64,000 bases of DNA from Bacteroidota bacterium (GCA_003175935.1 PSRI01000064.1:10831-74830), one strand, 5' to 3'; counted from the first letter of the stretch, positions 45,288 to 63,502 are shown. The notes: generated by a model not told the origin, from the sequence alone. Numbers and translations: made by a program.

Positions 45288-45321
45288 GACATAATTTTAT
45301 TTAAAGAGATTCAAAAGATTA

Positions 45322-45873
45322 TTATGGTGTTTCAACTGCCAGCACTAGAGACGCACCTCCAGTTTCCGGAGCTAACAAAACGGCTCCAGTCCACTTTATT
45401 CCTTCCCAAATTCCAATTAAAATGGCGGTTCCCGTAATACTATTTCTAACCTTTGGATAACCCAAGTCAATCCACTCCTGGTAAATTTCTTCTAACTCAG
45501 ATGGCGTTGCGTCTTGGCCTGGACGCACCTTAGGCTTATATTCACGATGATACCATCTTTGAAAATCTTGTGGATATTGCTTAATATCTTTATCTCTATC
45601 TTTTTGTTTTCCGCCTTTTAACTTATCGTCATCCGATTTTTTTGATTTATCTCCGCTTCCATCTCCTGGTCCGCCTATTGTTGTATTGTCTGATACGGCT
45701 TTTACTTTCCCATCGGATTCATCATCGCCCTTCTTTGACGATTCATCATCGTTTTTCTTTGACGATTCATCATTTTTTTCATTTTTTACATCATCTTTGA
45801 GCATGGTCGATCGCAGCTCTTTAAATATATTAACAGCATCGTCTCCAGTATATGTAATCCGATCTGCGCTTTC
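45322..45873 (-). other. orphan cassette toxin tail (~183 aa): charged low-complexity linker plus C-terminal hydrophobic Gly-rich segment
   Basis: This is the sequence after DADGMDVV. It contains [21 protein letters not shown], encoded by ~24-bp imperfect tandem repeats at 45715-45780. It ends in [38 protein letters not shown]. Confidence 0.55.
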
Positions 45874-47878: not shown

Positions 47879-47954
47879 TTATTTGCCAATACAAAAAGTA
47901 ATAACGAATGAGGATGAGAGAGATATAATATTAGGGTACAAATGAGGTACAATT
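47879..47954 (-). repeat. decayed copy 2 of the mnmE 3' end (att-like)
   Basis: TTATTTGCCAATACAAAA encodes FCIGK-TAA on the minus strand. It aligns over ~75 bp with copy 1. Confidence 0.55.
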
Positions 47955-48878: not shown

Positions 48879-48921
48879 CTACTTCCCAATACAAAATCTT
48901 ACATGTTATGAAAATGAAGGA
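48879..48921 (-). repeat. decayed copy 3 of the mnmE 3' end (att-like)
   Basis: CTACTTCCCAATACAAAA is identical to copy 1 over 18 nt and encodes FCIGK-TAG on the minus strand. Confidence 0.55.
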
Positions 48922-48941
48922 GTACTTAAGACTGCTAATAG

Positions 48942-49107
48942 CCTCCACCTTTCTTTGCATCAACGATTACGCTTTGTAAGGGCGTTCCAATGGAAAGTGT
49001 TTCAAAAATGCTCGGCCATAGAAATCTTCGCACCACGCAACACTATGCGAAAATATTAGATCAGAAAATTGCCAATGATATGCGAAGTATACAAGAAAAA
49101 TATGTTT
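48942..49107 (+). pseudogene. C-terminal fragment of a tyrosine site-specific recombinase (integrase)
   Basis: My translation is PPPFFASTITLCKGVPMESVSKMLGHRNLRTTQHYAKILDQKIANDMRSIQEKYV-stop. The GVP.E.VSKMLGH...TTQ.Y motif (catalytic Tyr box) is typical of Bacteroidota phage-type integrases. An in-frame TAG lies immediately upstream, so only ~55 codons remain. Confidence 0.7.
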
Positions 49108-49519
49108 AACATTATATCCTTGTACATATTGATTTCAATCTCATTTGTTCAAGATTTTTTTAATTCAATCAGCTTTGTGATGGTAGATTATTTAATAAAG
49201 CAAATTTTAATATGATTATTGAAAATATTGAACAAGCGAAACCAGTCTCTGCGGTTTACAAAAAATGCATCCAACTTTCGCCCAATGATTTTCGAATTTA
49301 AACATGATAGTCTTCAATTGGAAAAATTACCCAATTCGCCAAATAAAACTTAAATATTACAATGCAAGATTTGAATCCATATATTTTAGGCAAATTAATT
49401 TTTGATTCGGAGAAGTCTTTATAAGTTTCACTCTTCTATACGAATTTGCATACTAACCACTATTTCTAACAATAAATCTTTAGACACTTGACATTCTTTA
49501 AATTTTTGGGCTTATTGCC

Positions 49520-50038
49520 TTAATCATATTTCCATTCGACTAATTTTATTTTCTGTGTGGTTTCGTCAAGCCAAATGATAAGAAAATAATAGGTATATAC
49601 CATGGAAATTTCAGCCAAGATTGGGTCTCCTTTTTCGAACCATTCTTTACTAATTAAGTAAAATTCACTTACAGTTTCGTGTACTATAAATTGCTTAAAT
49701 TTATTCCAGATCTTAACAAAATCTGCATGGTCTTTGCCCCAGTTAGTTTCAGATTGGTATTCATTAAAGAAATCTATAAGTTCAACCTTTTTTATCTTTC
49801 GAAAATATTCTAAATTTATCAGTTTATCATCGAAAGCATGACCTGCAAACAAATTATTGTTTGTCTTATTTGCTTGGCTTGCGCTTATATTACAATCCTC
49901 TCTGTAATATTTGGAGTTTAGAAAAGTATCAATCAATTCGTTGCCATAATCGTCGGCCCCGACAATTGAAAATTCATACATATATTTTGATTGTTCGCCT
50001 TGAATCTCTATGGTTGAGTTTATTAAATTAAATTCCAT
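49520..50038 (-). CDS. putative cognate immunity protein of Rhs-B
   Basis: 172-aa ORF. Its ATG lies 2 nt after the Rhs-B stop, on the same strand. It is AT-rich and has no signal peptide. Confidence 0.7.
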   Translation of the reverse strand: MEFNLINSTIEIQGEQSKYMYEFSIVGADDYGNELIDTFLNSKYYREDCNISASQANKTNNNLFAGHAFDDKLINLEYFRKIKKVELIDFFNEYQSETNWGKDHADFVKIWNKFKQFIVHETVSEFYLISKEWFEKGDPILAEISMVYTYYFLIIWLDETTQKIKLVEWKYD

Positions 50039-50040
50039 TT

Positions 50041-50706
50041 TTAAGGATTTATTCTAAGTTTATAAATTACATCTCCCGTATTTATTTGAATGGATTCTCC
50101 ATTTGCAAACGATTTATAAAATTTCACAAATGTACCGTCACTCAATTTATATAAAGATTGACCAACTTCAGTCGCGTTTTGTGACACTTGTGTTTCTAAT
50201 GCCGCATAATCCGCAGTTGCTTCTCCATGTACTTCGCCATGTTTAAGCATCCCTTCTTCAAACTTCAAATCTTCTAGTTGTCCCATTAAATCTTCGGCTG
50301 ATCCTATGGTCGCATCGGCTGCACCAGTTGCAAGCTCTTCCTCTGAAACTGAGTTAACTTCTTCTCCTTCAATAGCAACATCCAACAATTCTCCTCCTAC
50401 TTCAGACAAGGCAATAATTAGAAAGGTTTTGTACAAATGTGCATCACTCTTCCAATATCCACTCATTTTCCTTCTGTATCGAATAGCTTCGGCGGATGTA
50501 GCATTGTTTAATTGCTTTCTTGCATTATCAGATAACAATTTATTTTGAAATGCCCATCTGCGTATAGCGTCAGGTGAATGCTGGCGAGCTAATTCGAAGT
50601 CAACCCATGCGCTTATGGTCTCGTAATTTGCGCGATTTAGCACATCAGTGGGGCTTCCTTTTTTAGGAACTTTTATTACAATTGGCGACAGAGTAATTGT
50701 GTCTGT
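50041..50706 (-). other. Rhs-B C-terminal variable (toxin) tail, ~221 aa, family not recognised
   Basis: This is the sequence after DPLGLKA. It is unrelated to the tails of Rhs-A and of the orphan cassette. Confidence 0.6.
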
Positions 50707-53700
50707 CGCCTTAAGTCCCAAAGGATCATTAAATCTGATTGGATTGTTGTTTGCAAATGAATAAGCTGAAATCGAGTTAATAATGTCAGCCAATCTGTCG
50801 ATTTGCACAAATCTTCCAATCTGAGGGTCATATGATCTAAATTTAGCGTCATACATGTCGAATCCAGACCCATCAGAAAATTCGTTGCTCTGCAATTCAT
50901 TGCCATTATTGAATCCCAATAATATTCTTGACTTCCCAAAAACCAAGGATTTTGCTGAAATTCCCGCAATTGATAGTCCAAAAGGATAGTAGTGATTCTC
51001 CTCCAATAATTTACCTCTGTGATGATTCACCTGGAAATTCTCAAAGTAAACATCCATGGGGCTTTCGTTTGAAAGGTATACATATAAATAACCATTGGTG
51101 CCCATCACATGTCCCAATTCAATCAGGGAATCTTTAGTATCCGCGCTTGACGAAATTTGCCTTGTACCGCTACTGCTATTTACCAAATTAAACTGTTCAT
51201 CAAATAATATCCAGTTTAAATATGCCTTGGGTTTCCCAGCATTTTGATTCGGATCGGTATTTTTCAAATCATCAATATTGGGATACCCGCTGGTATTGAA
51301 TGTCGCTAAATTCCGATCTCCAATGCTGAAGTGACCTGAAGGATCTAATGCCGTGGAAGTACCGCCAAATGCGACAATCAAACCTGCAACCATTTCTGAA
51401 ACAATATGGCTGTTACTGTTATTTTGAGTGGAGGCCTGGTAGAACACATTTGTTTTCATATCCACCGTATCCGTAGCCATTACTTTTAGCAAAATGCTTG
51501 GACCGATTCTTCGAGCAGGATCAGAATAATTCAGTTTCACCATATAATGGTTGCTCGTATCTGAATCATATCCGTTAGGTTTGGCTCCTTGAATGGAAGA
51601 AAGAGGGTTCGGATTATAATACAGTTGCTCGGTAGCACGATTTACAGTCTCCATCGTTAGAGCAGGATATTTGTCTGTCTGACTTTCCTCCGTCAATACC
51701 ATACGCACGTTACCTAAATGATCTTTGATGAAGTAATCCCACGAGTAGTGAACTGGATTTGTTCCCTGCGCCAATACATATCTCAATCTTCCTTCTTCAT
51801 GCAAAATGATTTGCAGGGTATCATTATCATAAATGTAAGCTCCTGTGTAACTAGTCGTAGTTGTCTTCACTCCAGAAGTGCTGTCCACCACAATCTTCTT
51901 TAATTTATTTCCTGCAGCATCGTATACATAGTTAATCGTTCCTTTTCCGTTTATTGAAATCTGTTGAGGCAGATTCAGGAAATTGTAACTGATGTTTGAA
52001 ATTTTCTTGTTATTATCTAGCACTAAATTGCCATTGCCATCATAGACATAATCATCTCCGGAATTCAAGCCATCTTTAAAGTCTCCCAATGGTGCAGTGA
52101 TCCCACTAGCATCAGCGACCTTCGCAAGTTTATTTGTCCAAGCACCTGAACCTTGATAAGAATAGGTCAAGCGATCTATGTATGCAGAAGTATTTAATAA
52201 GAGCCCCTTTTGATTCATGGACAGAATATTCCCATTGGCATCGTAGCTTAAACTATCCACACTAAAATTTACATTCGCATCAGTCGCATAGCCGCCACCG
52301 CTATTTTGGGTGTAATCCGCTTTCAGAATTCTGTTCGTGTTGTCATATCCAAATCCATAGGCCCGTCCGATGGGATTGCCACGGCTCTTCCAGGCGGTTC
52401 CAGCAATATTTCCGTTTAGCTGGTTCAGTGTAAATCCAAAATCGTATGCCAGATCCATTCCGAAGAAATTACTCGTGCTGACACCCGTTACATAGTCGCG
52501 GTTGATTCCTTTCAACCATCCGCGAATATTATAATCATAGGCCAGTGACTCGACCGGTTGATTGCCCAGTGATTTATTCTTCAAGCGGCCTAAAACATCA
52601 TAAGTGTTGGTAGCAATTGCTTCAGGAGATGTAGAACCATTCAGATACTTATTAACTGTTGTCACCCGCCCTTGGGCGTCATAGTTAAATGCGGTAACCA
52701 GTTTATTATATTTGACCGGAGCTACAGAAGAAATGATACTATGTGTAGCGCAGGTACTCAATGCTTTTCCTGCAAAATCATACTGCGTTGTAGTCGTATC
52801 CCAGGCTCCCGTCAGGTTTAGTGATTGTTGTTGAATGGGCCTGTTGAATTCATCATAGAAATTAATTCCGAGTTCATATAAATTATTGTTTAGTGGATCC
52901 AGCACTTTGATTCTTGAACCCGTTTGCATGCCACGAGTTTGCGCACTTGAAGAAGGTGTTTGCGTATAGGCGCCTGACAATATAACTGGCAAATCGTTGG
53001 TGTTATTAAAAGCAGTTGTGAAACTGTGATTGATATTGATATCGCTCCTGGATTGCCAGTTTTGATCATCATAAAAACTTTCCGTCAAGATCGAATATGT
53101 ACCACTTAACGTTGGATAGCTGATGCTGGATTGAGAAGATGTCTGATGGGTTGCGCGATCAGAACCATTGTTCCAAAGAGTAGTGCTGATGGTTCGATTC
53201 AGGCTATCAAATGTGGAAACCAACCATTGACTGTTTTGCCTCAGGACAGAATCTCTTGACATAACCATTCTGTCTCTTGCGTCATATACCATTTCCACAA
53301 CTCCTGCACCCGGAACTTTTTTGGTAATCAACCTTCCTTCCTGGTCGTAATTGTAAGAGAAGCATAATTCATCCCCGACGCCTGCACTCAAAGTCCAAGC
53401 ATTCTGATTTGCATATTGAACAGCTTTGGGCGGAATGACATAGCGTAGCCGGTCCAAATTATCATACACATAATAGGTAGCTAACCAACCTGAATAACCG
53501 TTAAACAAAGTATCAGACAACTGTACTTTTTTCAAAATGGTTTTTCCGTCTTTATCTTTGAATTCAATGACTTTATTATCATGTTCGTCCGTGGTGATAA
53601 TCTCCGCGAGCGCTCCCGCTACATAACTTGATGAAGTTTGTGGAATATCTGAAATTAAGTTTCCAATTGTCCAAATTCGAACTGAATCCAGATCGCCATT

Positions 53701-56700
53701 AAAAGTGTAATCTGTTCTTGCCCCGATATTATTCCCCGTCCAGCTATTGCCCGGTGCCGTTGCTTTGATGATCCGATTTTCAGGTGATGCTTCATAAATG
53801 GAATTACTATAATAAAATCCTTCTTTATTATTGAATAAAGAATTATAAAAGCCAGGTTGCCTGCTATTGGCATCAGTTCTGAAATTCCCGCTTGATGCCG
53901 AATCCGTGTAAGGCAGATATTGCTGTGCCACCCGACCCAGTATATCATAATTTTTTACAGTGATTAAGTCAGCGCTGCTTGGGTTTGCCTGTTTGGCTAC
54001 TGTCTGTACATCTCTTCCCAAATCATCAAAATAAGTGGTCGATTGCATGGCATCACTGGGCGAAGTCAAAGCTTTTGCTGCACTTACAGTGTTGATGGCA
54101 TTCTTATTGACATCCCAACTTCTGATGAAATTAATTTTGGAATTCGAAATACTTAAAAGTGTTACCGGTGCAATTGACGCAGGAGTAATTCCAGGATCGG
54201 CTACACTTTGCGTAGTTGTAGTTGGCAAATTCGTTCCTGTAGAACCTGGTCTCACTTTCACTCTCACTACATTTAGAAATCCCGACACGAAAGAATACCC
54301 GTTTTGTGGCCCATTGGTCACATACCTTCTATAATAAGTGGTCCTTGATAAGGCACTGGAACTGTAATTCTGAGAAGTTCCGCCAGAAATATTTTTCCAG
54401 TTTACTTCATCATCTGATTGCTGCCACTGGTATGAATAGGACGCAACTGTTCCACCATTGGCTTGTGTTCCCGAAAGTGAGACACTTTGACCGGAATTGA
54501 TCACTAAAGTATTTGGAGAAATGGTTCCTGGATCAAAGTGTACAATCTTTACCAGAACTTGCAGCGTATTAGAATACCGCGAGGTCACAGCATTCGTTGC
54601 TTTCCTTCGGTAAAATACACTGGTGGCAAGTGGGTCTGTCGGCTGAAAATCGATTCCAGTCCCACTATTGGTAAGTGGATAAAAGTCCAAATTGTTGAGT
54701 GAATATTCCCACTGATATGTATAAACGCTATCCAGCCCTCCGGTTGGCAAACTTCCAGTCATTACTGCTGGAACCGTATTCCAACCAATGGAATCTGTAT
54801 TCGATAAACTGATTGTACCCGGATTAAAGTAAGGGAATACTAAAACATAACTGGTATCCGTAAACGCAGAATCAGATCCGCAAATCACCTTCCGTCGGTA
54901 ATAACCACTAATTGTTGTTGGATCAACTATACTGCGACTCGTTTGGCCTGAGATCGGTAAATAATGGATGGAATCCGTAGACTTTTGCCACTGGTAAGTA
55001 AAAGAACCTCCACAAGTTCCACCTGTAGCTGAGTCCGGACTTGAATCTATCGTAATAGAACTACCATTTTCCAGAGTTTGGTAAGGTTTTCCAATAATGC
55101 CTGGTGAAAGAGGAGAATTATGGACATTCACTTTGAGTGTCACAAAAACACCACCGCTGTCCAAAGTCACAGTCTGTTGACCAATGCCCGTCCAATGGAT
55201 GTATGCTTCAGGAACGTGTGACGCACCGCCTACAACTGTTCCGCCACTGGTTGCACTCCAATTATAAATGCTGGAATTGCCGGTGTTATAGTGATATAGA
55301 GCGGTTTGTCCAACCCAGCAATCTGTAGGTCCTGCAAGTCGACTGATTTCCGTATCTATTGTATCAATGATACTATATGCTGTTTCACCACCCACAGAGA
55401 TTTTCATCCGGTAATAGGTCTTGGTAGCAGGATTGAAATAGCCTGGATTGTATGTCAGTAATATGGCACCTGTAATATCTGACCATGATGTTCCGTTGGC
55501 CGATTGTTGCCATTGATAAGCGTAGCATCCCTCTCCAGGGCATGCACCGCCGGAGGCAAGCCCGCATTTCAAATTAATGGGCATGTTGGTATAGGAGTTG
55601 GCTAACTGGTAGGTTGGCCAGGTATTTCCAGAAACCAAAGGCGGGAAATGCACTGAAATCGTATTGGTATAAACGGTTTCTGACCTGTTAACAGTTTTCA
55701 AACGGTAATAGGTAGCCGAAGTAAGATTCCCCGGACTCAGTGTCAAACTTCCTGCGGTACCTGTGTTGGTCCAATTCACATTATCAGTGGACTGTTGCCA
55801 TTGATAGGCATAACTACTAGTAATACCTCCGCTGGAGGTTGTTGCTGTAAGGGTGCCAGGATCGCCATTGTAAGCTATCGTTACGTTGGATGGCGATGCG
55901 GTGCCAGCAGACAAATGCGGGTGTACAATCACCTGCACATCATTTGAGTTCGCTGTCTGGGTGGAGCAGGTGGCTACACGACGAAAATAAGTTGATGTCG
56001 TTAAAGGGCCTGGCGTATAACTGGCACTCGTGGCGCCACTTATGGGTCCAGTAAAGTTTGTGCCATCCGTAGAAGAATACCATTTGTAAGTATAAGATCC
56101 ACTACATCCACCACCCGATGCGGCAGTTCCGGAAATGGTAGCTGGCTGCACACTTACGAAAGTATCCTGCGTAGCCGGTGAAAGCGTTCCGCCTAATAAC
56201 TGCGGGTATACGTTAGCGGTATAGACATTAGTATAGGCAGTCACTCCATTGCAGCTTACGGCTCTCCTGTAATAAGTTGTTGAAGTAAGCGAAGGAGGCT
56301 GATAGTTTTGTCCTGTGGCTGTTGAAATATTGGTAAAAGTCGAATTGTCCGGGCTTGACTGCCACTGATAAGCATAAGACCCACCACAATTTCCACCCGT
56401 GGCAACTGATGCCGTAAGTTGTGCGGGTGCGGTACCATACAATAAATTGGCTGTAGTTGGAGATATGGTTAAGCTACCTCCTGTTAACGGTGGAATTGGA
56501 CTGATTGTCACATTCAGAGTGGCTACAACAACACCTGTATTGTCCTTGATCTTTACAAACCCACTTGTAACATCTGGGAACCAAGTAACATCAACACTGC
56601 TATTTGTCGCAGAGGAAGCGGAACCAGATCCAATGAACCAGGTATAGTTCGATGGCTTTGATGGTGATACGGTATAGGTATATCGATTTGTCTCAATAAC

Positions 56701-56832
56701 AGAAGCCGGTCCCGAAATAACGTAGTCTATTACTAACGGATTTATAGTTTGAGCTGAAGCATTAATTGCAAAGGTGAACGACAAAATCGTTCCCAATAAG
56801 ATTTGTGTTTTACGAAGGATAGCCAGTTTCAT
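50041..56832 (-). CDS. Rhs-B: giant secreted polymorphic toxin (two head modules + seven Ig-like repeats + DUF6443-like region + YD/RHS shell + variable tail)
   Basis: 2263-aa ORF with signal peptide MKLAILRKTQILLGTILSFTFAINASAQ. It has seven GG.C.GSY.YQWQ-type repeats. A DUF6443-like block reads TTYFDDLGRDVQTVAKQ (~54010). It has many YD repeats. The RHS core end is RSYDPQIGRFVQIDRLADIINSISAYSFANNNPIRFNDPLGLKA (~50709-50840). Confidence 0.9.
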   Translation of the reverse strand: MKLAILRKTQILLGTILSFTFAINASAQTINPLVIDYVISGPASVIETNRYTYTVSPSKPSNYTWFIGSGSASSATNSSVDVTWFPDVTSGFVKIKDNTGVVVATLNVTISPIPPLTGGSLTISPTTANLLYGTAPAQLTASVATGGNCGGSYAYQWQSSPDNSTFTNISTATGQNYQPPSLTSTTYYRRAVSCNGVTAYTNVYTANVYPQLLGGTLSPATQDTFVSVQPATISGTAASGGGCSGSYTYKWYSSTDGTNFTGPISGATSASYTPGPLTTSTYFRRVATCSTQTANSNDVQVIVHPHLSAGTASPSNVTIAYNGDPGTLTATTSSGGITSSYAYQWQQSTDNVNWTNTGTAGSLTLSPGNLTSATYYRLKTVNRSETVYTNTISVHFPPLVSGNTWPTYQLANSYTNMPINLKCGLASGGACPGEGCYAYQWQQSANGTSWSDITGAILLTYNPGYFNPATKTYYRMKISVGGETAYSIIDTIDTEISRLAGPTDCWVGQTALYHYNTGNSSIYNWSATSGGTVVGGASHVPEAYIHWTGIGQQTVTLDSGGVFVTLKVNVHNSPLSPGIIGKPYQTLENGSSITIDSSPDSATGGTCGGSFTYQWQKSTDSIHYLPISGQTSRSIVDPTTISGYYRRKVICGSDSAFTDTSYVLVFPYFNPGTISLSNTDSIGWNTVPAVMTGSLPTGGLDSVYTYQWEYSLNNLDFYPLTNSGTGIDFQPTDPLATSVFYRRKATNAVTSRYSNTLQVLVKIVHFDPGTISPNTLVINSGQSVSLSGTQANGGTVASYSYQWQQSDDEVNWKNISGGTSQNYSSSALSRTTYYRRYVTNGPQNGYSFVSGFLNVVRVKVRPGSTGTNLPTTTTQSVADPGITPASIAPVTLLSISNSKINFIRSWDVNKNAINTVSAAKALTSPSDAMQSTTYFDDLGRDVQTVAKQANPSSADLITVKNYDILGRVAQQYLPYTDSASSGNFRTDANSRQPGFYNSLFNNKEGFYYSNSIYEASPENRIIKATAPGNSWTGNNIGARTDYTFNGDLDSVRIWTIGNLISDIPQTSSSYVAGALAEIITTDEHDNKVIEFKDKDGKTILKKVQLSDTLFNGYSGWLATYYVYDNLDRLRYVIPPKAVQYANQNAWTLSAGVGDELCFSYNYDQEGRLITKKVPGAGVVEMVYDARDRMVMSRDSVLRQNSQWLVSTFDSLNRTISTTLWNNGSDRATHQTSSQSSISYPTLSGTYSILTESFYDDQNWQSRSDININHSFTTAFNNTNDLPVILSGAYTQTPSSSAQTRGMQTGSRIKVLDPLNNNLYELGINFYDEFNRPIQQQSLNLTGAWDTTTTQYDFAGKALSTCATHSIISSVAPVKYNKLVTAFNYDAQGRVTTVNKYLNGSTSPEAIATNTYDVLGRLKNKSLGNQPVESLAYDYNIRGWLKGINRDYVTGVSTSNFFGMDLAYDFGFTLNQLNGNIAGTAWKSRGNPIGRAYGFGYDNTNRILKADYTQNSGGGYATDANVNFSVDSLSYDANGNILSMNQKGLLLNTSAYIDRLTYSYQGSGAWTNKLAKVADASGITAPLGDFKDGLNSGDDYVYDGNGNLVLDNNKKISNISYNFLNLPQQISINGKGTINYVYDAAGNKLKKIVVDSTSGVKTTTTSYTGAYIYDNDTLQIILHEEGRLRYVLAQGTNPVHYSWDYFIKDHLGNVRMVLTEESQTDKYPALTMETVNRATEQLYYNPNPLSSIQGAKPNGYDSDTSNHYMVKLNYSDPARRIGPSILLKVMATDTVDMKTNVFYQASTQNNSNSHIVSEMVAGLIVAFGGTSTALDPSGHFSIGDRNLATFNTSGYPNIDDLKNTDPNQNAGKPKAYLNWILFDEQFNLVNSSSGTRQISSSADTKDSLIELGHVMGTNGYLYVYLSNESPMDVYFENFQVNHHRGKLLEENHYYPFGLSIAGISAKSLVFGKSRILLGFNNGNELQSNEFSDGSGFDMYDAKFRSYDPQIGRFVQIDRLADIINSISAYSFANNNPIRFNDPLGLKATDTITLSPIVIKVPKKGSPTDVLNRANYETISAWVDFELARQHSPDAIRRWAFQNKLLSDNARKQLNNATSAEAIRYRRKMSGYWKSDAHLYKTFLIIALSEVGGELLDVAIEGEEVNSVSEEELATGAADATIGSAEDLMGQLEDLKFEEGMLKHGEVHGEATADYAALETQVSQNATEVGQSLYKLSDGTFVKFYKSFANGESIQINTGDVIYKLRINP

Positions 56833-56887
56833 ATGCAGTGTTAGAGGGTAGTTGAATCTTTGTTTTTCTCAGAATTGTCCTTATGAA

Positions 56888-59800
56888 TTATCTCGAAAGC
56901 TCTCCATAGTTATATTCAAACACTTTGCGAATGTTTCCATATTGATCTTTGATGTCCAACAGTCTGTTGAAAGAATCATAGTCGTAATAACAAATGGTTC
57001 CGTTCACACTCACAATCGCTATTAACCTCATCAACGAATCATAGGTGTAGGTGCTCATCTGGGCATTGGCTGGATATAGGGATACTTCATCTATATTGCC
57101 ACTGCCCGATACCGTTATGGTTGTTGCCCCGGTCACTGCAACTTCATTATACTGGTATCCATTCACTGTTCTTCCGGTTATTGCATTGCTCGTAGTTCCT
57201 CCCGAGATAGAAACTGACGATCCACTTTTTTTCCAATAAGAAACGATATAGGATTTTCCTGATGTCAGACTTGATTTACTGAGTGAGGAAGAACTGAGCG
57301 AAATCGCTTTTGCTCCCGTAGGCGCTGTGGCATCTGATACAACTGCAGAAGCAGTGTAATTCCAATTTCCTTTTTCTGGACTTTCAAAACTATTGAAGGC
57401 GACATCCTGGAATGTTGCATTATCCACCTGCGCCAATGGCAAATTCAAATTGTTATCCCAAATGATGGCCTGGTTTTTATCGTTCACCAGTTTCTGATCT
57501 GTGATTTTACCCGTGCTGCCGTTAACATTGAAATTGGCTTTTTCAACGAAATAACTGCTCGGCAGTAAGGTCGTATACTTGGAACTAAATCCTACATTTT
57601 CCCCAACCTGGGTCTGCGTCAATGGCACCGTGGTTTCTAGTGCATAAATCTTCACCGGGTTAATAAATGTATCCACACCACTTGTCGCAAAGTCTTTATA
57701 CTGTGTAATCGTTCCACCGATAAGTTGATTGTTTTTCCAAACCCTTGTCGCAATGGGAAGCAGCATATTGCGACTCGACATTTTCGCAAAGACACTATCA
57801 GAGGATGCCGTATTGGTATAGTCAAAGGAGTAATAATTCTTGCTGATCATCACATCACCTACACTATTAGTAGTAGTATCACTGGTCCTCAGTGAATGCG
57901 CATCGTTTTCATACCCGTAGGTATGCGTTGTGACCATGGATTTGGAATCCTTATAATCGGTTATTATAGTGGAAACCAGATGCGAAATTCCCGTCCTCAG
58001 CTTATAAAAAGTCATTGCATCATCATAAAGTGCTGTCTGATTCTGATGTCGGAATAATTTGAAGCCACGGATCGAGTAATCTTCATGGTATTTTTCACTA
58101 AAAACATTTCTGACCTTACGCAAAAGCACACCCGAAGAATCATAAGTGTCTTCTCCAAGTTGTTGCCCTCTCCTGAAATCCAGTTGATCTGGAGCCGCCG
58201 GATATAAATCCGGAAGAAGGCCTCCAAAATAATATTCCAGGTATTGTGGTAAGGTGTCATTGAAATGACCATTCCCAAAATATCCAGTTACAGGACCATA
58301 ATCAGACTGAACCGTAGTATAACCCGTGTAGTTATACATGCTCAGGCGGGATGTATTATTGAAGAACTGATCGGCCATATAGGAATACATTTTATATCCT
58401 CCTTCTCCACTGGGTCCAAATGTTTCCTTTACGAACGGATAACCAATTGGATTACCCTGGAAGTCTTGAAGTGGTACCACACTTTGCGATTCCCTGACTG
58501 CGCATCTTAAATAGACGGGACCAAATCCGTATCCCTGGTAGCTGACCGTTGGCCCTGAGAACAACCAATTAATCGTATAATAAAATTCATTTTGAGGAAA
58601 AAGCAAATATTGAGGCGTGTGATACAAAACACCGCCTCTGCCATAATCAAAACTGCGTACCTGTACATTACTGGTGAGACTATCCTGCGTGGTTATCTTT
58701 TTAATCCGTAGCCCTCCTACGAATTGGAAAGGACTGCCTTGCGTTGAAGTATGCGCTTCAAAATCTAATGTAGTAGTAACCCCTAATGGGTCTTTAATCG
58801 TGCGAATGGTAAAGGATTTCATTGAAAGGGTATCGGCATTTCGGTTGGCGGCTTCACCGTTGGTATTTAAGCAAATTTGATTGTATACATGTGGTGTAAA
58901 CCGCTTGTTACTGTTGCCTGAATAATTATTACTATAGCCCCAATGGTCCTGGTCGTAACTCATCCTGCGGGGTAATTGTTTATTTTCCAAATAGGTAAAA
59001 GAATATGGAGGCTTTGTGGACAACCCATCTCCGGAAATCTCTCTCACAGAAAGTAATTTCAGTCTCTTCGTATCCGATGTATCTCCACCCATATAGCCCG
59101 CTGCTCCTGTAGGTAAATTTGCCGCCGTAGTTGATTTAAAATAGGAATAGCTGAGCAGGTATTGTTTGATGCATTGATTCTGGGCATTGAATATTTTAAC
59201 AGAATCTAACTGATTGGAGGATCCGACTAAATCCTGCCGTGCTGTGTTTGCAATGAATTTGATATTAAAATTCCTGGATGTAATGTTGTTTAATTTCAAT
59301 CCAGTCACAGTGGTTTTATAAATCGTCATGGGCGGATCTATAATGGTACAGGCCTGAGTCATATTTACATCACCCGATCCTCCGAAAATTTTAGTTTCCT
59401 GACCGAGGTCATAGTACGAGAATGCCTCCGTTGTATAGTTGAAATAAACTGTATCCTTGGTATTGGGATAGATGATGCGTGTCAGAAACCAGCTGGATGG
59501 TTTTTGCGTATTGAAATCCGTCGTAGTTTGATTCGAAGTGACTGCAGTGACCTCATGCATATTGTTCTCACCGAAATAATAGCGGGTACCATCAGGCGTC
59601 GTAATAAGCCATGAAGTGAAATTGCTTCCATCATACGCAACGGAAATTTTTACGTCTTCTTCTGTAATCATTCGGGGCGTTCTGGATTCATCAAAAACAA
59701 ATTTTCCTGTATAACCATTGAAATTAAAAGTGAACAAATCCGGTTCTGTGTCCATTTTTCCTGCACTGAGTTGTTGCTTGAAATATTCAAACTGCGGCGT

Positions 59801-60250
59801 GAGATTTACCATGACGCCGCTGGAATTGGGATAATTCAACATCGGCATTTTTCTAATGCCAGAGTCCTGGTAATAACCACTCGGACTTCCACCTGGCGCG
59901 GCAATGCCTTCATCCGGGCCGCCTCTTACCGTACGGGCAATCATTCCACCGGCATTCAGTGCCCAACCCAGTCCCACCCAACTCGCCAACTCAGAAACTC
60001 TAATTCCACTCGCGTGGTAACTGAGCGAGACAGAAAGTTTCGCAGCACCATCCTGCAAATTGTAAAGAGGAATACTAATGTTGGGTGTTCCTGTGTAATA
60101 ACTCACCGGGTAATCCGCATACTTACCGAGTGCACCTACATTGGGTGCCGGTTGCGTATAATTTCCTAAATACTTATAAGGAGGTGTAGTTTGAGATTGG
60201 CCAAGGCTAACAATTACAAAACAAGAGAGGGCCAGGATGATTTTTTTCAT
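56888..60250 (-). CDS. secreted protein with TcB/SpvB-N-like motif and terminal YD repeats (locus B; shorter paralogue of 31536-38414)
   Basis: Signal peptide MKKIILALSCFVIVSLGQSQ from the ATG at 60250 (the track used the TTG at 60268). YYTGTPNISIPLYNLQDGAAKLSVSLSYHASGIRVSELASWVGLGWALNAGGMIARTVRGGPDE parallels the locus A protein. KRLKLLSVREISGDG...PPYSFTY is also present. The C-terminal YTYDSLMRLIAIVSVNGTICYYDYDSFNRLLDIKDQYGN is YD-like. Confidence 0.85.
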   Translation of the reverse strand: MKKIILALSCFVIVSLGQSQTTPPYKYLGNYTQPAPNVGALGKYADYPVSYYTGTPNISIPLYNLQDGAAKLSVSLSYHASGIRVSELASWVGLGWALNAGGMIARTVRGGPDEGIAAPGGSPSGYYQDSGIRKMPMLNYPNSSGVMVNLTPQFEYFKQQLSAGKMDTEPDLFTFNFNGYTGKFVFDESRTPRMITEEDVKISVAYDGSNFTSWLITTPDGTRYYFGENNMHEVTAVTSNQTTTDFNTQKPSSWFLTRIIYPNTKDTVYFNYTTEAFSYYDLGQETKIFGGSGDVNMTQACTIIDPPMTIYKTTVTGLKLNNITSRNFNIKFIANTARQDLVGSSNQLDSVKIFNAQNQCIKQYLLSYSYFKSTTAANLPTGAAGYMGGDTSDTKRLKLLSVREISGDGLSTKPPYSFTYLENKQLPRRMSYDQDHWGYSNNYSGNSNKRFTPHVYNQICLNTNGEAANRNADTLSMKSFTIRTIKDPLGVTTTLDFEAHTSTQGSPFQFVGGLRIKKITTQDSLTSNVQVRSFDYGRGGVLYHTPQYLLFPQNEFYYTINWLFSGPTVSYQGYGFGPVYLRCAVRESQSVVPLQDFQGNPIGYPFVKETFGPSGEGGYKMYSYMADQFFNNTSRLSMYNYTGYTTVQSDYGPVTGYFGNGHFNDTLPQYLEYYFGGLLPDLYPAAPDQLDFRRGQQLGEDTYDSSGVLLRKVRNVFSEKYHEDYSIRGFKLFRHQNQTALYDDAMTFYKLRTGISHLVSTIITDYKDSKSMVTTHTYGYENDAHSLRTSDTTTNSVGDVMISKNYYSFDYTNTASSDSVFAKMSSRNMLLPIATRVWKNNQLIGGTITQYKDFATSGVDTFINPVKIYALETTVPLTQTQVGENVGFSSKYTTLLPSSYFVEKANFNVNGSTGKITDQKLVNDKNQAIIWDNNLNLPLAQVDNATFQDVAFNSFESPEKGNWNYTASAVVSDATAPTGAKAISLSSSSLSKSSLTSGKSYIVSYWKKSGSSVSISGGTTSNAITGRTVNGYQYNEVAVTGATTITVSGSGNIDEVSLYPANAQMSTYTYDSLMRLIAIVSVNGTICYYDYDSFNRLLDIKDQYGNIRKVFEYNYGELSR

Positions 60251-60274
60251 AGATGAATATGCAGTCAAATAATT

Positions 60275-61723
60275 TTAGAAATTATAACCCACCCTAAAAA
60301 TGAATGGATTGGTTCTGGGCACATGTCTCGTGGCTAAAAAATCGTAGAGTGCCTGCGCATTCCCTTTGAATTTTTTACCGAGACTGTATTTTTTACTAAA
60401 CCCCAGCAAAGCACTTTGCTGCCAGAGTGTATAGTTTTTGAAAATCTGCAAACTGGAAATACGTTTCATGTAATTCATTTCTGCACCTCCACTCAGCCAC
60501 CAGCCTCCTTTCACTTTCCAATCGATAAAAGATCGTAGACTTAATCCTTCTGCAGAAATGTGCATATGGTTCCAGTCTTTACCCCAACCCATCTTGTAAG
60601 AGCCACCAATGCCGATAATACTTTTCTGATTGATTTTATATCCTAGGGAAAAACCAAAATCAGAGGTCACAGGAAAATATCCATTCCCCCGGGATGATTG
60701 AAGGTTCATACCATATTCAAGCCTGTGCCAAAAAGATTTGGTCTTTTGCTGATTGGGCGTAAATGAAGGAGTATTCATCTCGCCATCTGAAGCACCCCCG
60801 AGTTGGTTAAGTTTACTCTTGAGTTGATTCAACTGATCCTTCGCCTGATCAAATTGCTGGTTGATCACTTGTTGTCCGTTAGGTCCGCCTGCCAATGCTC
60901 TTTGTTGAACGAGCTGTTGCACCTGTGTTCGCGTTTGAAGAGCAGGATTCACAGAGGCATTGGACCCTAATCCCGATGGAGCAAACAAAGAAGCAAGCAT
61001 GGAGTTTTTCGAAATGAAATCCTGAAATGCGGGAACATGATTTAAAACTTCAAGTAGTTTTTGTTCCACTTTGGATGGATCATTCAGAGTTTGTCTGAGC
61101 TCTTTTATCTGCTGACTATAATAGTAAACATCTTGCTGATATTTCCCGAAACACTTACTGATATTTTTGGGGAGGTTGGTGTATTTGGAAAGCAGGTTTT
61201 TAATTTGCTGTTGTCGTTCGAGTAATTGTATTTTGATGGCTTCTGTCTGATTGAGTTTATCTTTTAATTGTCGTACTTCCTCTAATGATTTGGCTATCCG
61301 ATCCTGCACTTCTTTACTTTCTGACAGTAGCGCTTTGCCTTGAGACAGGAATGATAACGATCCTTCTAAAGAATCCAAATATGGCATGTAGGGTCCAGAA
61401 AGAATCTTTGAAACTTTTTCTGACTTGGTATTCATCTTTGAAGCAAGCTTTTCATATCTGGCTGTAACATTTCCTAGAGCTTTTGCAGCCGAAGAATCAT
61501 ACTTTGAAATTTTGGAAGAAAGTTTTTGTTCCTGCCTGGATAAATTATTGAGGTATTGTGAGGTTTCGCAGGTAATCTTATGATCCAGCCCGGAAATTTT
61601 AGAATCAATTTGGTCAAAGTATTTCGAAGGAAGAGATGATAAATTCTGAAAACTGGAATCCTGCGCCCTGGTTAGTCCGTAAGCAAGGAGGCATAGCAAA
61701 AATAAAAAATAATACTTCTGCAA
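60275..61723 (-). CDS. outer-membrane protein: N-terminal coiled-coil region + C-terminal small beta-barrel (locus B)
   Basis: 482-aa ORF with signal peptide (M)QKYYFLFLLCLLAYGLTRAQ. It has ~300 aa of heptad-like Q/K/E/L-rich sequence. The C-terminal ~150 aa has alternating beta-strand patterns ending FIFRVGYNF. It lies 6 nt upstream of the SpvB-N-like gene stop-to-start junction region. Confidence 0.7.
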   Translation of the reverse strand: MQKYYFLFLLCLLAYGLTRAQDSSFQNLSSLPSKYFDQIDSKISGLDHKITCETSQYLNNLSRQEQKLSSKISKYDSSAAKALGNVTARYEKLASKMNTKSEKVSKILSGPYMPYLDSLEGSLSFLSQGKALLSESKEVQDRIAKSLEEVRQLKDKLNQTEAIKIQLLERQQQIKNLLSKYTNLPKNISKCFGKYQQDVYYYSQQIKELRQTLNDPSKVEQKLLEVLNHVPAFQDFISKNSMLASLFAPSGLGSNASVNPALQTRTQVQQLVQQRALAGGPNGQQVINQQFDQAKDQLNQLKSKLNQLGGASDGEMNTPSFTPNQQKTKSFWHRLEYGMNLQSSRGNGYFPVTSDFGFSLGYKINQKSIIGIGGSYKMGWGKDWNHMHISAEGLSLRSFIDWKVKGGWWLSGGAEMNYMKRISSLQIFKNYTLWQQSALLGFSKKYSLGKKFKGNAQALYDFLATRHVPRTNPFIFRVGYNF

Positions 61724-62101: not shown

Positions 62102-63502
62102 TTATTTCCCAATACAAAACTTACTAAATATGAAATCCAGCCGGTCTTCGTTTGTAATCTCACCTGTGATCTCTCCTAAATAATGCAAACACCTTCTGAT
62201 ATCAAGAGACAGGAGGTCCCCGGAGATCCGTGCATCCAGGCCCTTCCGTATGTCAGCCAATGATTTCGCTACCTCCTGGAGTGCAGCATAATGACGCGCA
62301 TTGGTAACAATAGTATGCTCAGTGTTAACCTGACCTTCGACCAAAACACCTGTGAGTTTGTCGCGCAATTCAGAAATATGACCGTGCTTTTTTGCTGAGA
62401 TAAAAATGATTTCTTCATTGTTGAATTTAGCTATGAGTTTTTTCTCTTCGCTTAAATCCATTTTGTTTCCGACGAGTATATAAGTCTGGTTAATGCCATC
62501 CATTTTGTTTATCTCTGCTTCTAAACCTTCTCTTGTTTCCTCATTAGCGTCGAACACATACATCACGATATCTGCAAGACGCATTTTCTCTAAACTCTTC
62601 TCCACACCTATTACTTCAATCTTATCACCACTGTCACGTATACCTGCAGTATCAATCAGTCGAAACAGAATTCCGTTGATGTTCAGAACTTCTTCAATGG
62701 TATCACGCGTAGTACCGGCAATTTCACTTACGATGGCCCTGTTTTCATTCAGCAAAGTATTCAGCAATGTACTTTTGCCGGCATTGGGCTTTCCTACGAT
62801 CGCTACATTTACGCCGTTCTTAATGACATTCCCTAACTTGAAAGAATCCATCAATTCCTGCGTGGAATTAGTGAGTTCTTCAATAAGTTGGTAGAATTCT
62901 TTTCTGTCAGCAAACTCCACATCTTCCGTTGCAAAATCCAGTTCCAGTTCTATAAGCGCTGAAAACCGAATCAGCTTTTCCCTGAGCTCATGAAGATTTT
63001 CAGAAAATCCTCCGCGAATATTTTTCAATGCAGTCTGGTGTGATGCCCGGGTATTGGAAGCAATTAAATCTGCAACAGCCTCTGCCTGCGTTAGATCAAG
63101 CTTTCCTTTCAAAAACGCTCGTTGGGTAAATTCTCCCGGCTTTGCAAGGCGGGCTCCCCTTTCAATCGTTGCATTGATAATTTGTTCCTGCACATAGGGT
63201 GAACCATGCGAAGAAATTTCCAACACGTCTTCGCCTGTGTATGACCGTGGGGAACGATATATGGATACAACCACTTCGTCGAGGGTTGTGATTCCATTTT
63301 TCAAAAGACCCACATGTAATGTATGAGTTGATTGTTTGGAGAGATCCTTTGAAGGGAACATCTCATTTACAATATCAAGTGCTTTTGCTCCGCTCAAACG
63401 AATCACTCCAATTGCGCCTATGCCTGGTGGTGTTGATAGGGCAACAATAGTATCATCCCAGCCTCCTAATTTTCCTAGCATTATGCAAAAATAAGGTTTC
63501 AC
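62102..63502 (-). CDS. mnmE: tRNA modification GTPase MnmE (TrmE)
   Basis: DTIVALSTPPGIGAIGVIRLSG N-terminus, G1 GKPNAGKSTLLN, G3 DTAGIR, G4 GNKMD and the invariant C-terminal FCIGK. The start may be the internal ATG at 63481. Confidence 0.95.
   Translation of the reverse strand: MKPYFCIMLGKLGGWDDTIVALSTPPGIGAIGVIRLSGAKALDIVNEMFPSKDLSKQSTHTLHVGLLKNGITTLDEVVVSIYRSPRSYTGEDVLEISSHGSPYVQEQIINATIERGARLAKPGEFTQRAFLKGKLDLTQAEAVADLIASNTRASHQTALKNIRGGFSENLHELREKLIRFSALIELELDFATEDVEFADRKEFYQLIEELTNSTQELMDSFKLGNVIKNGVNVAIVGKPNAGKSTLLNTLLNENRAIVSEIAGTTRDTIEEVLNINGILFRLIDTAGIRDSGDKIEVIGVEKSLEKMRLADIVMYVFDANEETREGLEAEINKMDGINQTYILVGNKMDLSEEKKLIAKFNNEEIIFISAKKHGHISELRDKLTGVLVEGQVNTEHTIVTNARHYAALQEVAKSLADIRKGLDARISGDLLSLDIRRCLHYLGEITGEITNEDRLDFIFSKFCIGK

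What the first reader, a model, noticed from the sequence alone, without database searches (positions are those of the whole stretch)
49520..61723. Locus B: compact four-gene version (OMP, SpvB-N-like protein, Ig-Rhs toxin, immunity) located on the mnmE-proximal island
The gene order and strand match locus A, but the two small accessory genes are missing and the OMP and SpvB-N-like proteins are much shorter. This defines the minimal conserved set as OMP + SpvB-N-like + Rhs. The immunity ORF starts 2 nt after the toxin stop. Because the locus lies between mnmE and att-like copy 3, the whole system appears to be horizontally mobile as a unit.
Basis: partly seen in the sequence, partly recalled or inferred. 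Interest (0 to 1): 0.75.

Follow-up and report, generated by a model that had tools for sequence, protein, structure and literature searches.

The report
Bacteroidota two-part Rhs toxin island
Locus B is a real four-gene Rhs toxin operon whose conserved core is a TcB-like protein paired with a DUF6443-Rhs toxin, a module common in Bacteroidota but never studied experimentally, and here it sits on a decayed island inserted at the end of mnmE.

Summary
The four ORFs exist exactly as described, all on the minus strand with gaps of 6, 55 and 2 nt. The Rhs protein carries a signal peptide, Ig-like repeats, DUF6443, YD repeats, an Rhs core ending in DPLGL, and a 223-aa C-terminal toxin region. An AlphaFold model of the 1126-aa middle protein (pLDDT 85) most resembles the TcB subunits of Tc toxins, although no SpvB match is detectable by sequence.

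In 85 related loci the middle protein is followed by a DUF6443-Rhs gene in 53 of 57 evaluable cases. In nine further loci the two are fused into one polypeptide. The conserved core is therefore this pair, not the triad.

The 482-aa "OMP" (helical region plus an 8-stranded barrel) lies upstream in only 24 of 62 loci. It is not demonstrably homologous to the 794-aa locus A protein.

The immunity role is inferred from position only.

The island reading holds. Four copies of the mnmE 3' end (FCIGK-stop) occur where none is expected by chance, and an integrase C-terminal remnant abuts copy 3. No intact integrase is present. Relatives occur on plasmids and beside conjugation genes.

Verdict: a new variant of Tc-BC/Rhs polymorphic toxins whose export route is unknown.

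The parts
62102..63502 (-). mnmE (tRNA modification GTPase). Its last codons (FCIGK-stop, 62102-62119) form the proximal att-like site.
   Evidence: Pfam MnmE_helical 3.1e-53, TrmE_N 2.6e-39; pattern match.
60275..61723 (-). OMP_B, 482 aa. It has a signal peptide, a ~280-aa helical/coiled-coil region (aa 30-310, nt 60794-61636) and a C-terminal 8-stranded beta-barrel (aa 335-482, nt 60278-60721) ending in ..VGYNF.
   Evidence: AF2 model pLDDT 71 with 8 strands. The weak Foldseek matches of the C-terminal part are all outer-membrane barrels (Ail, OprF-N TMt 0.47, OmpA). The family has 1132 hits. It lies immediately upstream of the middle protein in 24/62 loci and in 2 of 3 reciprocal look-ups.
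56888..60268 (-). TcB-like middle protein, 1126 aa (probable start at 60250). It has a signal peptide, a conserved N-terminal motif (aa 55-120, nt 59909-60106), a long beta-rich shell-like body, a beta-sandwich insert (aa ~960-1066, nt 57071-57391) and terminal YD hairpins (aa 1067-1126, nt 56891-57070).
   Evidence: AF2 pLDDT 84.8, pTM 0.85. Foldseek best hits are TcdB2-TccC3 (1.3e-21) and YenB (1.8e-20, TMq 0.43). About 2000 homologues and at least 505 hits in species-representative genomes. The YD repeats match Rhs structures.
54223..56745 (-). Rhs_B N-terminal display region (aa 30-870), made of two PKD-like modules and seven ~94-aa repeats (Y-x-W-Q-x-S ... Y-Y-R-R).
   Evidence: Repeat spacings of 93-96 aa. 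Homologous to the locus A Rhs N-terminus, 35% identity, 7e-38. No Pfam hit here; locus A gives a weak Big_2 hit. This region is absent from the fused relatives.
53704..54087 (-). DUF6443 domain of Rhs_B (aa 916-1043).
   Evidence: Pfam PF20041, 3e-37. It marks the junction point in the natural Mid-Rhs fusions.
50713..53535 (-). YD-repeat shell and Rhs-associated core of Rhs_B (aa ~1100-2040), ending in NNPIRFNDPLGL.
   Evidence: TIGR03696 9.2e-12 and TIGR01643 2.4e-7; motif position.
50044..50712 (-). C-terminal toxin region (223 aa). The first ~115 aa are shared with another Rhs and include the hydrophobic stretch LYKTFLIIALSEVGG. The last ~100 aa are unique and of unknown activity.
   Evidence: 32% identity, 6e-17, to the L020 Rhs over aa 1-116 only. 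No Pfam family.
49520..50038 (-). Candidate immunity protein (172 aa, no signal peptide).
   Evidence: Starts 2 nt after the toxin stop. Only 3 homologues exist, none beside a related toxin. The role is inferred.
48942..49109 (+). C-terminal remnant (~55 codons) of a tyrosine recombinase: ..FFASTITLCKGVPMESVSKMLGHRNLRTTQHYAKILDQ..
   Evidence: Pfam Phage_integrase positions 137-171 of 172, E 1.2e-5. Stop codons lie immediately upstream.
48879..48912 (-). Att-like copy 3 (a displaced mnmE 3' end, FCIGK-stop), the distal boundary of the locus B island.
47879..47912 (-). Att-like copy 2. It is followed by a degenerate integrase remnant (VSKRRPHKRI) and shares 80 nt at 80% identity with the flank of copy 1.
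45322..47541 (-). Orphan Rhs C-terminal fragment with a different toxin tail, lying in the oldest mini-island. It is followed by small ORFs 44814-45287, 44463-44804 (DUF1493) and 44015-44440.
   Evidence: 55% identity to Rhs_B aa 1606-2047, diverging right after the cleavage motif. DUF1493 1.1e-10.
43073..43106 (-). Att-like copy 1, the outermost displaced mnmE 3' end.

Best explanation
Locus B is a Sec-dependent polymorphic Rhs toxin operon of a Bacteroidota-wide type, and no T6SS or TcA component was found with it. Its functional core is two proteins that act as one unit. The first is a TcB-like protein (1126 aa). The second is a DUF6443-Rhs protein (2263 aa) that plays the TcC role.

Shown: both carry signal peptides. 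The pair is almost always adjacent, and in nine relatives it is a single polypeptide joined at the Mid C-terminus and DUF6443. The Rhs part has the canonical core and a DPLGL cleavage motif, followed by a variable tail.

Inferred: after Sec export the two halves assemble into a BC-type beta-cocoon. The cocoon encloses the C-terminal toxin, which is cleaved off autoproteolytically. The Ig-like repeats of the Rhs protein and the beta-sandwich of the middle protein bind target cells. The conserved first half of the tail, with its hydrophobic stretch, helps entry into the target. The unique last ~100 aa is the toxin, and the cytoplasmic 172-aa protein neutralises it in the producer. The 482-aa protein, with a periplasm-length helical region on a small outer-membrane barrel, is a lineage-specific accessory (mainly Chitinophagaceae) that tethers or helps export the complex at the outer membrane. 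It is not part of the universal core.

The whole four-gene unit arrived as cargo of a small integrase-dependent island that targets the 3' end of mnmE. It is the most recent of three such insertions, and its integrase has since been deleted down to a stub.
For: ORFs, spacing and signal-peptide-like N-termini. Rhs features: DUF6443 3e-37, Rhs core 9e-12 and YD 2e-7, DPLGL at aa 2036. Middle protein fold: AF2 pLDDT 84.8; the thirteen best Foldseek hits are TcB-containing chains or entries (E 1e-21 to 6e-17, TMq 0.21-0.43, eleven of them 0.34-0.43), ahead of T6SS Rhs cores (E 1e-16 and weaker, TMq at most 0.15). Pair conservation: DUF6443/Rhs lies directly downstream in 53/57 loci, with a median gap of 37 nt. 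Nine fusion proteins hold the full middle protein joined to DUF6443, Rhs core and CT, including one on the Runella slithyformis conjugative plasmid that is followed by an annotated Imm9 immunity gene. Polymorphic tail: divergence after the core versus L020 and versus the in-window orphan. OMP: model and barrel matches, and linkage in 24/62 loci plus L092 and L093. Island: 4 att-like copies vs 0 expected and an integrase remnant. None of the 85 related loci is next to mnmE, and the closest relatives sit in a different context. Relatives occur beside relaxase/T4CP genes and on 13 plasmids. The concept has precedent in the 'TcdB/TcaC' class of polymorphic toxins, which includes bacteroidetes (PMC3482391).
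Against: TM-scores to TcB are below 0.5, so only partial fold equivalence is shown. No SpvB or TcB signal appears at sequence level. No complex was modelled, so the joint cocoon is an inference. The Rhs part alone (~940 aa) is about the size of a self-sufficient T6SS Rhs shell. The toxin activity is unknown. The 172-aa ORF has no supporting co-occurrence. No route across the outer membrane is evident, because an 8-stranded barrel is too small to pass a cocoon. The OMP is absent from most loci. There is no intact integrase, no parent element was found, and no empty site was examined.
Confidence: 0.68

Rival explanations
1. The locus is an anti-eukaryotic Tc-like toxin active against amoebae, nematodes, fungi or insects. 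In this reading the BC-like pair docks onto a TcA-like translocator encoded elsewhere, and the small downstream ORF is not an immunity gene.
For: The best structural matches are insecticidal Tc BC components. The downstream ORF has no immunity-family match and almost no relatives. The locus A Rhs has no obvious immunity gene at all.
Against: Pfam and NCBIfam scans of the window's larger ORFs reported no TcA family. In the 85 related loci the upstream partners fall into the OMP_B family, a second secreted family and singletons, not one large conserved protein. All components carry Sec signal peptides, unlike Tc subunits. Orphan CT cassettes and an Imm9 gene after a fused relative are hallmarks of interbacterial polymorphic toxins. 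A survey of Tc loci found them almost only in Proteobacteria and Firmicutes (PMC7861908).
Confidence: 0.1
2. Only Rhs + immunity form the toxin system, exported by some general pathway. The middle protein is an independent YD-repeat surface or adhesin protein, and the 482-aa protein is an unrelated neighbour.
For: The Rhs part is large enough to form its own shell. The middle protein has its own signal peptide. The OMP gene is absent from 38 of 62 loci, and one homologue stands alone.
Against: 93% adjacency and nine in-frame fusions of the complete middle protein to DUF6443 are hard to explain without a joint function.
Confidence: 0.12
3. Locus B was not brought in as a unit by an mnmE-targeting element. 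The mnmE-end copies belong only to the small downstream remnants, and locus B was inserted or rearranged between them by homologous recombination, for example Rhs-driven.
For: There is no intact integrase, and the parent element was not found. Rhs sequences in the orphan and in Rhs_B share 55% identity and could recombine. GC content gives no sharp boundary.
Against: The interval between the genuine mnmE end and copy 3 contains nothing but the four genes and the integrase stub. The stub abuts copy 3 as expected for an int-attR arrangement. Related triads are found next to conjugation genes and on plasmids.
Confidence: 0.15

Closest known systems
Tc (ABC) toxin BC sub-complex (TcdB2-TccC3 of Photorhabdus, YenB-YenC of Yersinia entomophaga)
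   Same: Two adjacent genes. The first has a TcB-like fold. The second is an Rhs protein with a core domain, an autoproteolysis motif and a hypervariable C-terminal toxin. Natural fusions of the two exist.
   Different: No TcA was found. All parts have Sec signal peptides. No Pfam SpvB domain is detected. The Rhs partner has DUF6443 and often a long Ig-like N-terminal extension. A candidate immunity gene and orphan cassettes are present. The phylum is Bacteroidota, which is not mentioned in a Tc survey that places TcC 96.4% in Proteobacteria and 3.2% in Firmicutes.
'TcdB/TcaC-type' polymorphic toxins defined by comparative genomics (Zhang, Aravind et al. 2012, PMC3482391)
   Same: A signal peptide, a SpvB-like N-terminal module, RHS repeats, a variable toxin and an immunity gene. 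Bacteroidetes are listed among the lineages.
   Different: That class is defined by recognisable SpvB plus integrin-like propeller domains, and neither is detectable by sequence here. The split two-gene form, DUF6443 and the OMP partner are not mentioned in the passages I searched.
T6SS-delivered Rhs effectors (RhsA, Tse5, RhsP, Tse15)
   Same: A YD-repeat cocoon, a core domain, DPxGL cleavage, a C-terminal toxin with immunity, and orphan cassettes.
   Different: No PAAR, VgrG or prePAAR module and no T6SS genes were found in the window. A signal peptide is present. Structural similarity of the middle protein to these is much weaker (TMq at most 0.15).
Bacterial teneurin-like proteins (TLP; PMC13018210)
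   Same: Sec-dependent YD-shell polymorphic toxins with N-terminal adhesion modules, immunity genes and no known delivery machinery.
   Different: TLPs are single polypeptides with an FN-plug, NHL propeller and YD-shell, reported in six phyla that do not include Bacteroidota. Here the shell is split over two genes and the structural match to TLP is weaker (E 2.8e-12, TMq 0.10).
CdiB/CdiA contact-dependent inhibition (two-partner secretion)
   Same: An outer-membrane protein gene precedes a very large polymorphic toxin gene and an immunity gene. The C-terminal tail is bipartite, with a conserved entry part and a variable toxin.
   Different: OMP_B is an 8-stranded barrel with a helical N-terminal region. 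It is not a 16-stranded Omp85/TpsB with POTRA domains. No TPS domain or filamentous haemagglutinin repeats are present.
Integrative elements that target the 3' end of trmE/mnmE (e.g. SGI1-type islands of Proteobacteria; from my own knowledge)
   Same: Insertion at the 3' end of mnmE with duplication of the gene's last codons, and tandem accretion.
   Different: The phylum and integrase are different and unrelated. The element here is reduced to its cargo plus an integrase stub.

Membership tests
Rhs / YD-repeat polymorphic toxins | YD repeats and the Rhs-associated core domain | tested here: met
   TIGR01643 2.4e-7 and TIGR03696 9.2e-12 in the 2263-aa protein.
Rhs / YD-repeat polymorphic toxins | PxxxxDPxGL autoproteolysis motif followed by a variable C-terminal domain | tested here: met
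   NNPIRFNDPLGL at aa 2029-2040. Similarity to the orphan copy and to the L020 Rhs stops at or shortly after this motif.
Rhs / YD-repeat polymorphic toxins | Cognate immunity gene immediately downstream | tested here: inconclusive
   A 172-aa ORF lies 2 nt downstream and has no signal peptide. It matches no immunity family, and its 3 homologues are not next to related toxins. A fused relative is followed by an annotated Imm9 gene.
Tc (ABC) toxin complex | TcB subunit: SpvB N-terminal domain recognisable by sequence | tested here: not met
   No Pfam SpvB hit at E up to 10 on the N-terminal 300 aa. Profile searches of PDB sequences find no TcB.
Tc (ABC) toxin complex | TcB subunit: overall fold | tested here: inconclusive
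   TcB chains are the best Foldseek hits (E 1e-21 to 6e-17), but TMq is at most 0.43. A beta-propeller gate could not be verified.
Tc (ABC) toxin complex | TcA translocator encoded with B and C | tested here: not met
   Pfam and NCBIfam scans of the window's larger ORFs reported no TcA family. No large conserved upstream partner was seen in the 85 related loci. The rest of the genome was not searched.
Tc (ABC) toxin complex | Subunits lack signal peptides and are released by a lysis or T10SS cassette | tested here: not met
   All three large proteins begin with signal-peptide-like sequences, judged by eye without a predictor.
T6SS Rhs effectors | N-terminal PAAR/VgrG/prePAAR module or linkage to T6SS genes | tested here: not met
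   No such Pfam or NCBIfam hits in the locus B or locus A proteins, and no T6SS family among the hits returned for the other window ORFs scanned.
Teneurin-like proteins | FN-plug + NHL propeller + YD-shell in one polypeptide | tested here: not met
   No NHL hit. The shell is split over two genes. The structural match to TLP 9ifo is weak (TMq 0.10).
Two-partner secretion / CDI | Omp85-type TpsB transporter with POTRA domains, and a TPS domain in the toxin | tested here: not met
   OMP_B has no Pfam hit apart from coiled-coil noise, and its model has 8 strands.
Type V autotransporters (the name some sources give OMP_B homologues) | 12-stranded autotransporter beta-domain | tested here: not met
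   No Pfam Autotransporter hit. The model has 8 strands. The best barrel matches are Ail, OprF-N and OmpA.
Site-specific integrative island | Direct repeats of the target (att) flanking the element | tested here: met
   The FCIGK-stop core occurs at 62102 and 48879, plus two further copies, against 0 expected.
Site-specific integrative island | Functional integrase and excision | tested here: not met
   Only a 55-codon C-terminal stub remains (Phage_integrase E 1.2e-5). Excision is not testable here.

The most novel reading that the evidence does not exclude
The OMP / TcB-like / DUF6443-Rhs triad is a self-contained, previously unrecognised outer-membrane delivery apparatus of Bacteroidota. 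In this reading Sec-exported halves of a BC-type cocoon assemble in the periplasm. The coiled-coil/barrel protein then displays them on the surface or releases them (for example into vesicles). The result would be an Rhs toxin route independent of T6SS, T9SS and TcA.
Probability: 0.2. Interest if true: 0.8.

Novelty: new variant of a known kind. Interest (0 to 1): 0.6.

Why it matters
Rhs/YD cocoon toxins are understood only when they ride on a T6SS spike or dock on a TcA injector. How Sec-exported YD-shell toxins reach their targets is an open question, stated explicitly for bacterial teneurin-like proteins (PMC13018210). The module defined here is found in at least 505 matched stretches of a species-representative genome collection (one genome per species), across most orders of Bacteroidota. 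It splits the cocoon like Tc toxins do, yet it has no TcA. In Chitinophagaceae it carries a dedicated outer-membrane partner. That gives a concrete, genetically compact system (three or four genes, present in cultivable Niastella, Chitinophaga and Runella) in which the delivery question can be tested. It also shows that such toxin operons can travel as cargo of minimal integrative islands and plasmids.

Tried and rejected
1. Sequence-level link of the middle protein to SpvB/TcB. Pfam scans of the N-terminal, middle and C-terminal thirds at E up to 10, and full and N-terminal profiles against PDB sequences, found nothing apart from the terminal YD repeats.

2. Homology of the 482-aa and 794-aa 'OMPs'. 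BLASTP, jackhmmer, an HMM of each family run on 85 loci, and hhalign of two 50-sequence alignments gave only a 72-column coiled-coil match at 53% probability.

3. Toxin identification. Pfam, NCBIfam and PDB searches of the C-terminal tail gave no family.

4. Immunity validation by co-occurrence. Only three homologues exist: one between transposases, one in an acidobacterial metabolic context, and one after an unrelated ORF.

5. Parent island. 80 metagenomic loci carry integrases 64-76% identical to the stub. None is next to mnmE, the att core or the middle protein.

6. mnmE linkage in relatives: none in 85 loci.

7. Anti-phage defence reading: PADLOC returned only coiled-coil noise.

8. Promoter and terminator scans were at chance level.

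9. Literature. No paper in the library mentions DUF6443, and searches for Bacteroidota TcB/Rhs systems found nothing specific.

10. A look-up of the source contig beyond the window failed because the exact mnmE product is not on record.

Full report
OBSERVATION

The four ORFs are present at exactly the reported coordinates, all on the minus strand:
- 60275-61723: 482 aa.
- 56888-60268: 1126 aa. The NCBI model of the identical MAG protein starts at the ATG at 60250.
- 50041-56832: 2263 aa.
- 49520-50038: 172 aa.

The intergenic gaps are 6 nt (24 nt with the ATG start), 55 nt and 2 nt. This spacing fits a single operon downstream of mnmE (62102-63502; Pfam MnmE_helical 3e-53). Locus A (21511-41932) has the same order and strand, with two extra ORFs and longer proteins. 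The source is a soil-type Bacteroidetes MAG.

THE RHS PROTEIN

The Rhs protein opens with a signal-peptide-like N-terminus. It continues with two PKD-like modules and seven ~94-aa repeats (aa 30-870). DUF6443 follows (aa 916-1043, 3e-37). After that come YD repeats and the Rhs-associated core (TIGR01643 2e-7, TIGR03696 9e-12), which ends in NNPIRFNDPLGL at aa 2029-2040.

The 223-aa tail is bipartite. Its first ~115 aa, including the hydrophobic stretch LYKTFLIIALSEVGG, are 32% identical to the tail of a Sediminibacterium Rhs (6e-17). The last ~100 aa are unique and match no family.

A 739-codon ORF further downstream (45322-47541) is 55% identical to Rhs_B aa 1606-2047. It diverges precisely after the cleavage motif, which makes it a classical orphan Rhs-CT cassette.

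THE MIDDLE PROTEIN

Pfam, NCBIfam and PDB sequence searches recognise nothing in the middle protein except its last ~50 aa, which are YD hairpins. An AlphaFold2 model built on 47 homologues is confident (pLDDT 84.8, pTM 0.85).

The thirteen best Foldseek matches of that model in the PDB are all TcB-containing chains or entries. Examples are TcdB2-TccC3 (E 1.3e-21) and YenB (E 1.8e-20, TMq 0.43). T6SS Rhs cores rank lower (E 3e-16 and weaker, TMq at most 0.15), as do teneurins.

I therefore call the protein TcB-like in fold. The TM-scores are below 0.5 and no SpvB domain is detectable by sequence, so it fails a strict membership test for TcB.

CONSERVATION ELSEWHERE

The middle-protein family has about 2000 hits in the 5.8-billion-protein set. 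It also gives at least 505 confirmed stretches in the one-genome-per-species collection. These span Chitinophagales, Sphingobacteriales, Cytophagales, Saprospiraceae, Marinilabiliales, Bacteroidales and Flavobacterium.

I called ORFs in 85 fetched loci and labelled them with iterated profile searches. The results were:
- A DUF6443/Rhs gene directly follows the middle gene in 53 of 57 evaluable loci, with a median gap of 37 nt.
- In nine further loci (Saprospiraceae, Runella and others) one ORF of 1900-2570 aa contains the complete middle protein (HMM positions ~4-1133). It is joined directly to DUF6443, the Rhs core and a toxin tail. The junction corresponds to Rhs_B residue ~900-930, so the Ig-like region is skipped.

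These fusions are the strongest evidence that the two proteins work as one entity, exactly as TcB and TcC do. One such fusion lies on the conjugative plasmid pRUNSL03 of Runella slithyformis and is followed by an annotated Imm9 immunity gene. That ties the family to interbacterial polymorphic toxins.

THE 'OMP'

The 482-aa protein has a signal peptide. Its model (pLDDT 71) shows helices over aa 30-310 and eight beta-strands over aa 335-481, ending in ..VGYNF. Foldseek gives only weak hits, but every hit on the C-terminal part is an outer-membrane barrel (Ail, OprF N-domain TMt 0.47, OmpA).

The family (1132 hits) lies immediately upstream of the middle gene in 24 of 62 evaluable loci, nearly all of them Chitinophagaceae with a few Cytophagales. 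In a reciprocal test, two of three homologues chosen only for contig length sit upstream of a middle gene followed by a DUF6443-Rhs gene. The third stands alone. Twelve other loci carry a different secreted protein family upstream, and the rest carry singletons.

The 794-aa locus A protein belongs to a separate family of 490 clusters. It could not be linked to the 482-aa family. BLASTP gave E 0.54, jackhmmer and HMM searches gave no cross-hits, and hhalign gave 53% probability over 72 coiled-coil columns.

The OMP is therefore a real, lineage-specific accessory. It is not part of the minimal set, and the two OMPs in this window are at best analogues of each other.

THE IMMUNITY GENE

The 172-aa ORF starts 2 nt after the toxin stop and has no signal peptide, which fits a cytoplasmic immunity protein. 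It has only three homologues in the whole collection, and none of them is next to a related toxin. The role is inferred from position, not shown.

THE ISLAND

The last 18 nt of mnmE (TTTTGTATTGGGAAATAA, encoding FCIGK-stop) recur at 48879, 47879 and 43073 on the same strand with synonymous differences. That is four matches against 0.00 expected.

A 55-codon remnant of a tyrosine recombinase C-terminus begins about 30 nt to the right of copy 3 on the plus strand (48942-49109)..VSKMLGHRNLRTTQHYAK... It matches Pfam Phage_integrase positions 137-171 of 172 (E 1.2e-5), and stop codons cut it off upstream. A more degraded version lies next to copy 2. Copies 1 and 2 also share an 80-nt flank.

The simplest reading is three successive integrations at the mnmE 3' end. 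Each insertion restored the gene and displaced the previous end outward:
- An old Rhs island, now reduced to an orphan Rhs-CT and small ORFs (43107-47878).
- A 1-kb remnant (47913-48878).
- Most recently, a 13.2-kb element that consists of an integrase plus the four locus B genes and nothing else (48913-62101).

Independent support for mobility comes from several observations:
- None of the 85 related loci is next to mnmE.
- The closest relatives (68-69% identity) lie after gltB/amt genes.
- One triad lies directly after MobC/relaxase/coupling-protein genes.
- Relatives occur on 13 Bacteroidota plasmids.

Limits on the island reading are as follows. The ORFs scanned in the window include no intact integrase. 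A search of metagenomes for the parent element found only generic relatives of the integrase C-terminus. No empty site could be examined.

MECHANISM

Shown by the analyses above:
- The operon structure.
- The signal-peptide-like N-termini, judged by eye.
- The Rhs core and cleavage motif.
- The TcB-like model.
- The obligate pairing and the fusions.
- The polymorphic tail.
- The barrel-plus-helix accessory.

Inferred:
- After Sec export the two halves assemble into a BC-type cocoon that encloses the autoproteolytically released tail.
- The Ig-like repeats, and a beta-sandwich insert near the Mid C-terminus, bind targets.
- The conserved half of the tail mediates entry, and the unique half is the toxin.
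- The 172-aa protein protects the producer.
- The 482-aa protein tethers or helps expose the complex at the outer membrane.

The step across the outer membrane is unexplained. An 8-stranded barrel cannot pass such a particle. No T9SS C-terminal signal, T6SS module or TcA was found.

COMPARISON WITH KNOWN SYSTEMS AND NOVELTY

The system works most like the BC part of Tc toxins. It also fits the 'TcdB/TcaC-type' class of polymorphic toxins that Zhang et al. proposed from genomics in 2012, which includes bacteroidetes.

It differs from Tc toxins in having signal peptides, no TcA, DUF6443, a candidate immunity gene and orphan cassettes. It differs from T6SS Rhs effectors in lacking PAAR/VgrG modules. 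It differs from bacterial teneurin-like proteins in being split over two genes and in phylum.

A genome-wide Tc survey places TcC 96.4% in Proteobacteria and 3.2% in Firmicutes and does not mention Bacteroidetes. No paper in the library mentions DUF6443. I rate this a new variant of a known kind, with moderately high interest. It is widespread, uncharacterised and compact, and it offers a handle on the open question of how Sec-exported YD-shell toxins are delivered.

Noticed in passing
window 43073-48912: There are two further decayed mini-islands in tandem between locus B and the core genome, each closed by an FCIGK-stop pseudo-end of mnmE. The outer one holds an orphan Rhs C-terminal cassette (45322-47541) with a different toxin tail, plus three small ORFs, one of them DUF1493 (44463-44804). 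The orphan cassettes here are separated from the main rhs gene by att-like sites. This points to serial site-specific insertion rather than the usual displacement by homologous recombination.
   Followed up: partly
window 20128-30522: The locus A Rhs (3003 aa) ends with a variant core motif (..AIDIDGM..) and a ~300-aa tail. The next gene, 102 nt downstream, is an S26 signal peptidase homologue (Pfam 9e-21). No obvious immunity gene follows this toxin.
   Followed up: partly
window 30677-31561 and 38443-39537: These are the two locus A accessory ORFs. The 294-aa one has weak similarity to the LolA3 family (NCBIfam 2.8e-6, below the cutoff). The 364-aa one matches nothing. Some other loci (L030, L035, L041, L049, L055) also have a 170-190-aa ORF between the middle gene and the Rhs gene.
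   Followed up: no
L001 8789-9976, L005 8637-9782 and 10 other loci: A second, unrelated family of upstream partner genes appears in 12 loci. These are secreted 280-540-aa proteins (one of 1638 aa), many with a GNVGIGT-type N-terminal motif and a C-terminal coiled coil. They have no Pfam match and replace the OMP_B gene in these loci. L001 still keeps a 102-aa fragment of an OMP_B-type gene.
   Followed up: partly
window 47287-47541: The first ~85 codons of the orphan Rhs ORF are not Rhs sequence (..[18 protein letters not shown]..). They may be the remains of an earlier immunity gene fused in frame. No Pfam hit.
   Followed up: partly
L092 4940-8564: In one metagenomic genome the OMP / middle / DUF6443-Rhs triad lies immediately after MobC, relaxase and type IV coupling protein genes. 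It is therefore apparently cargo of a conjugative or mobilisable element.
   Followed up: no
window 1-13400: The left part of the window is a plant-polysaccharide utilisation cluster (GH9 with CelD_N, GH10, GH43, an MFS sugar transporter, an esterase and a 3-keto-disaccharide hydrolase). It is unrelated to the toxin loci.
   Followed up: no
window 48234-48737: A 167-aa ORF with a signal-peptide-like N-terminus is the only gene in the middle 1-kb mini-island. It has no family match.
   Followed up: no
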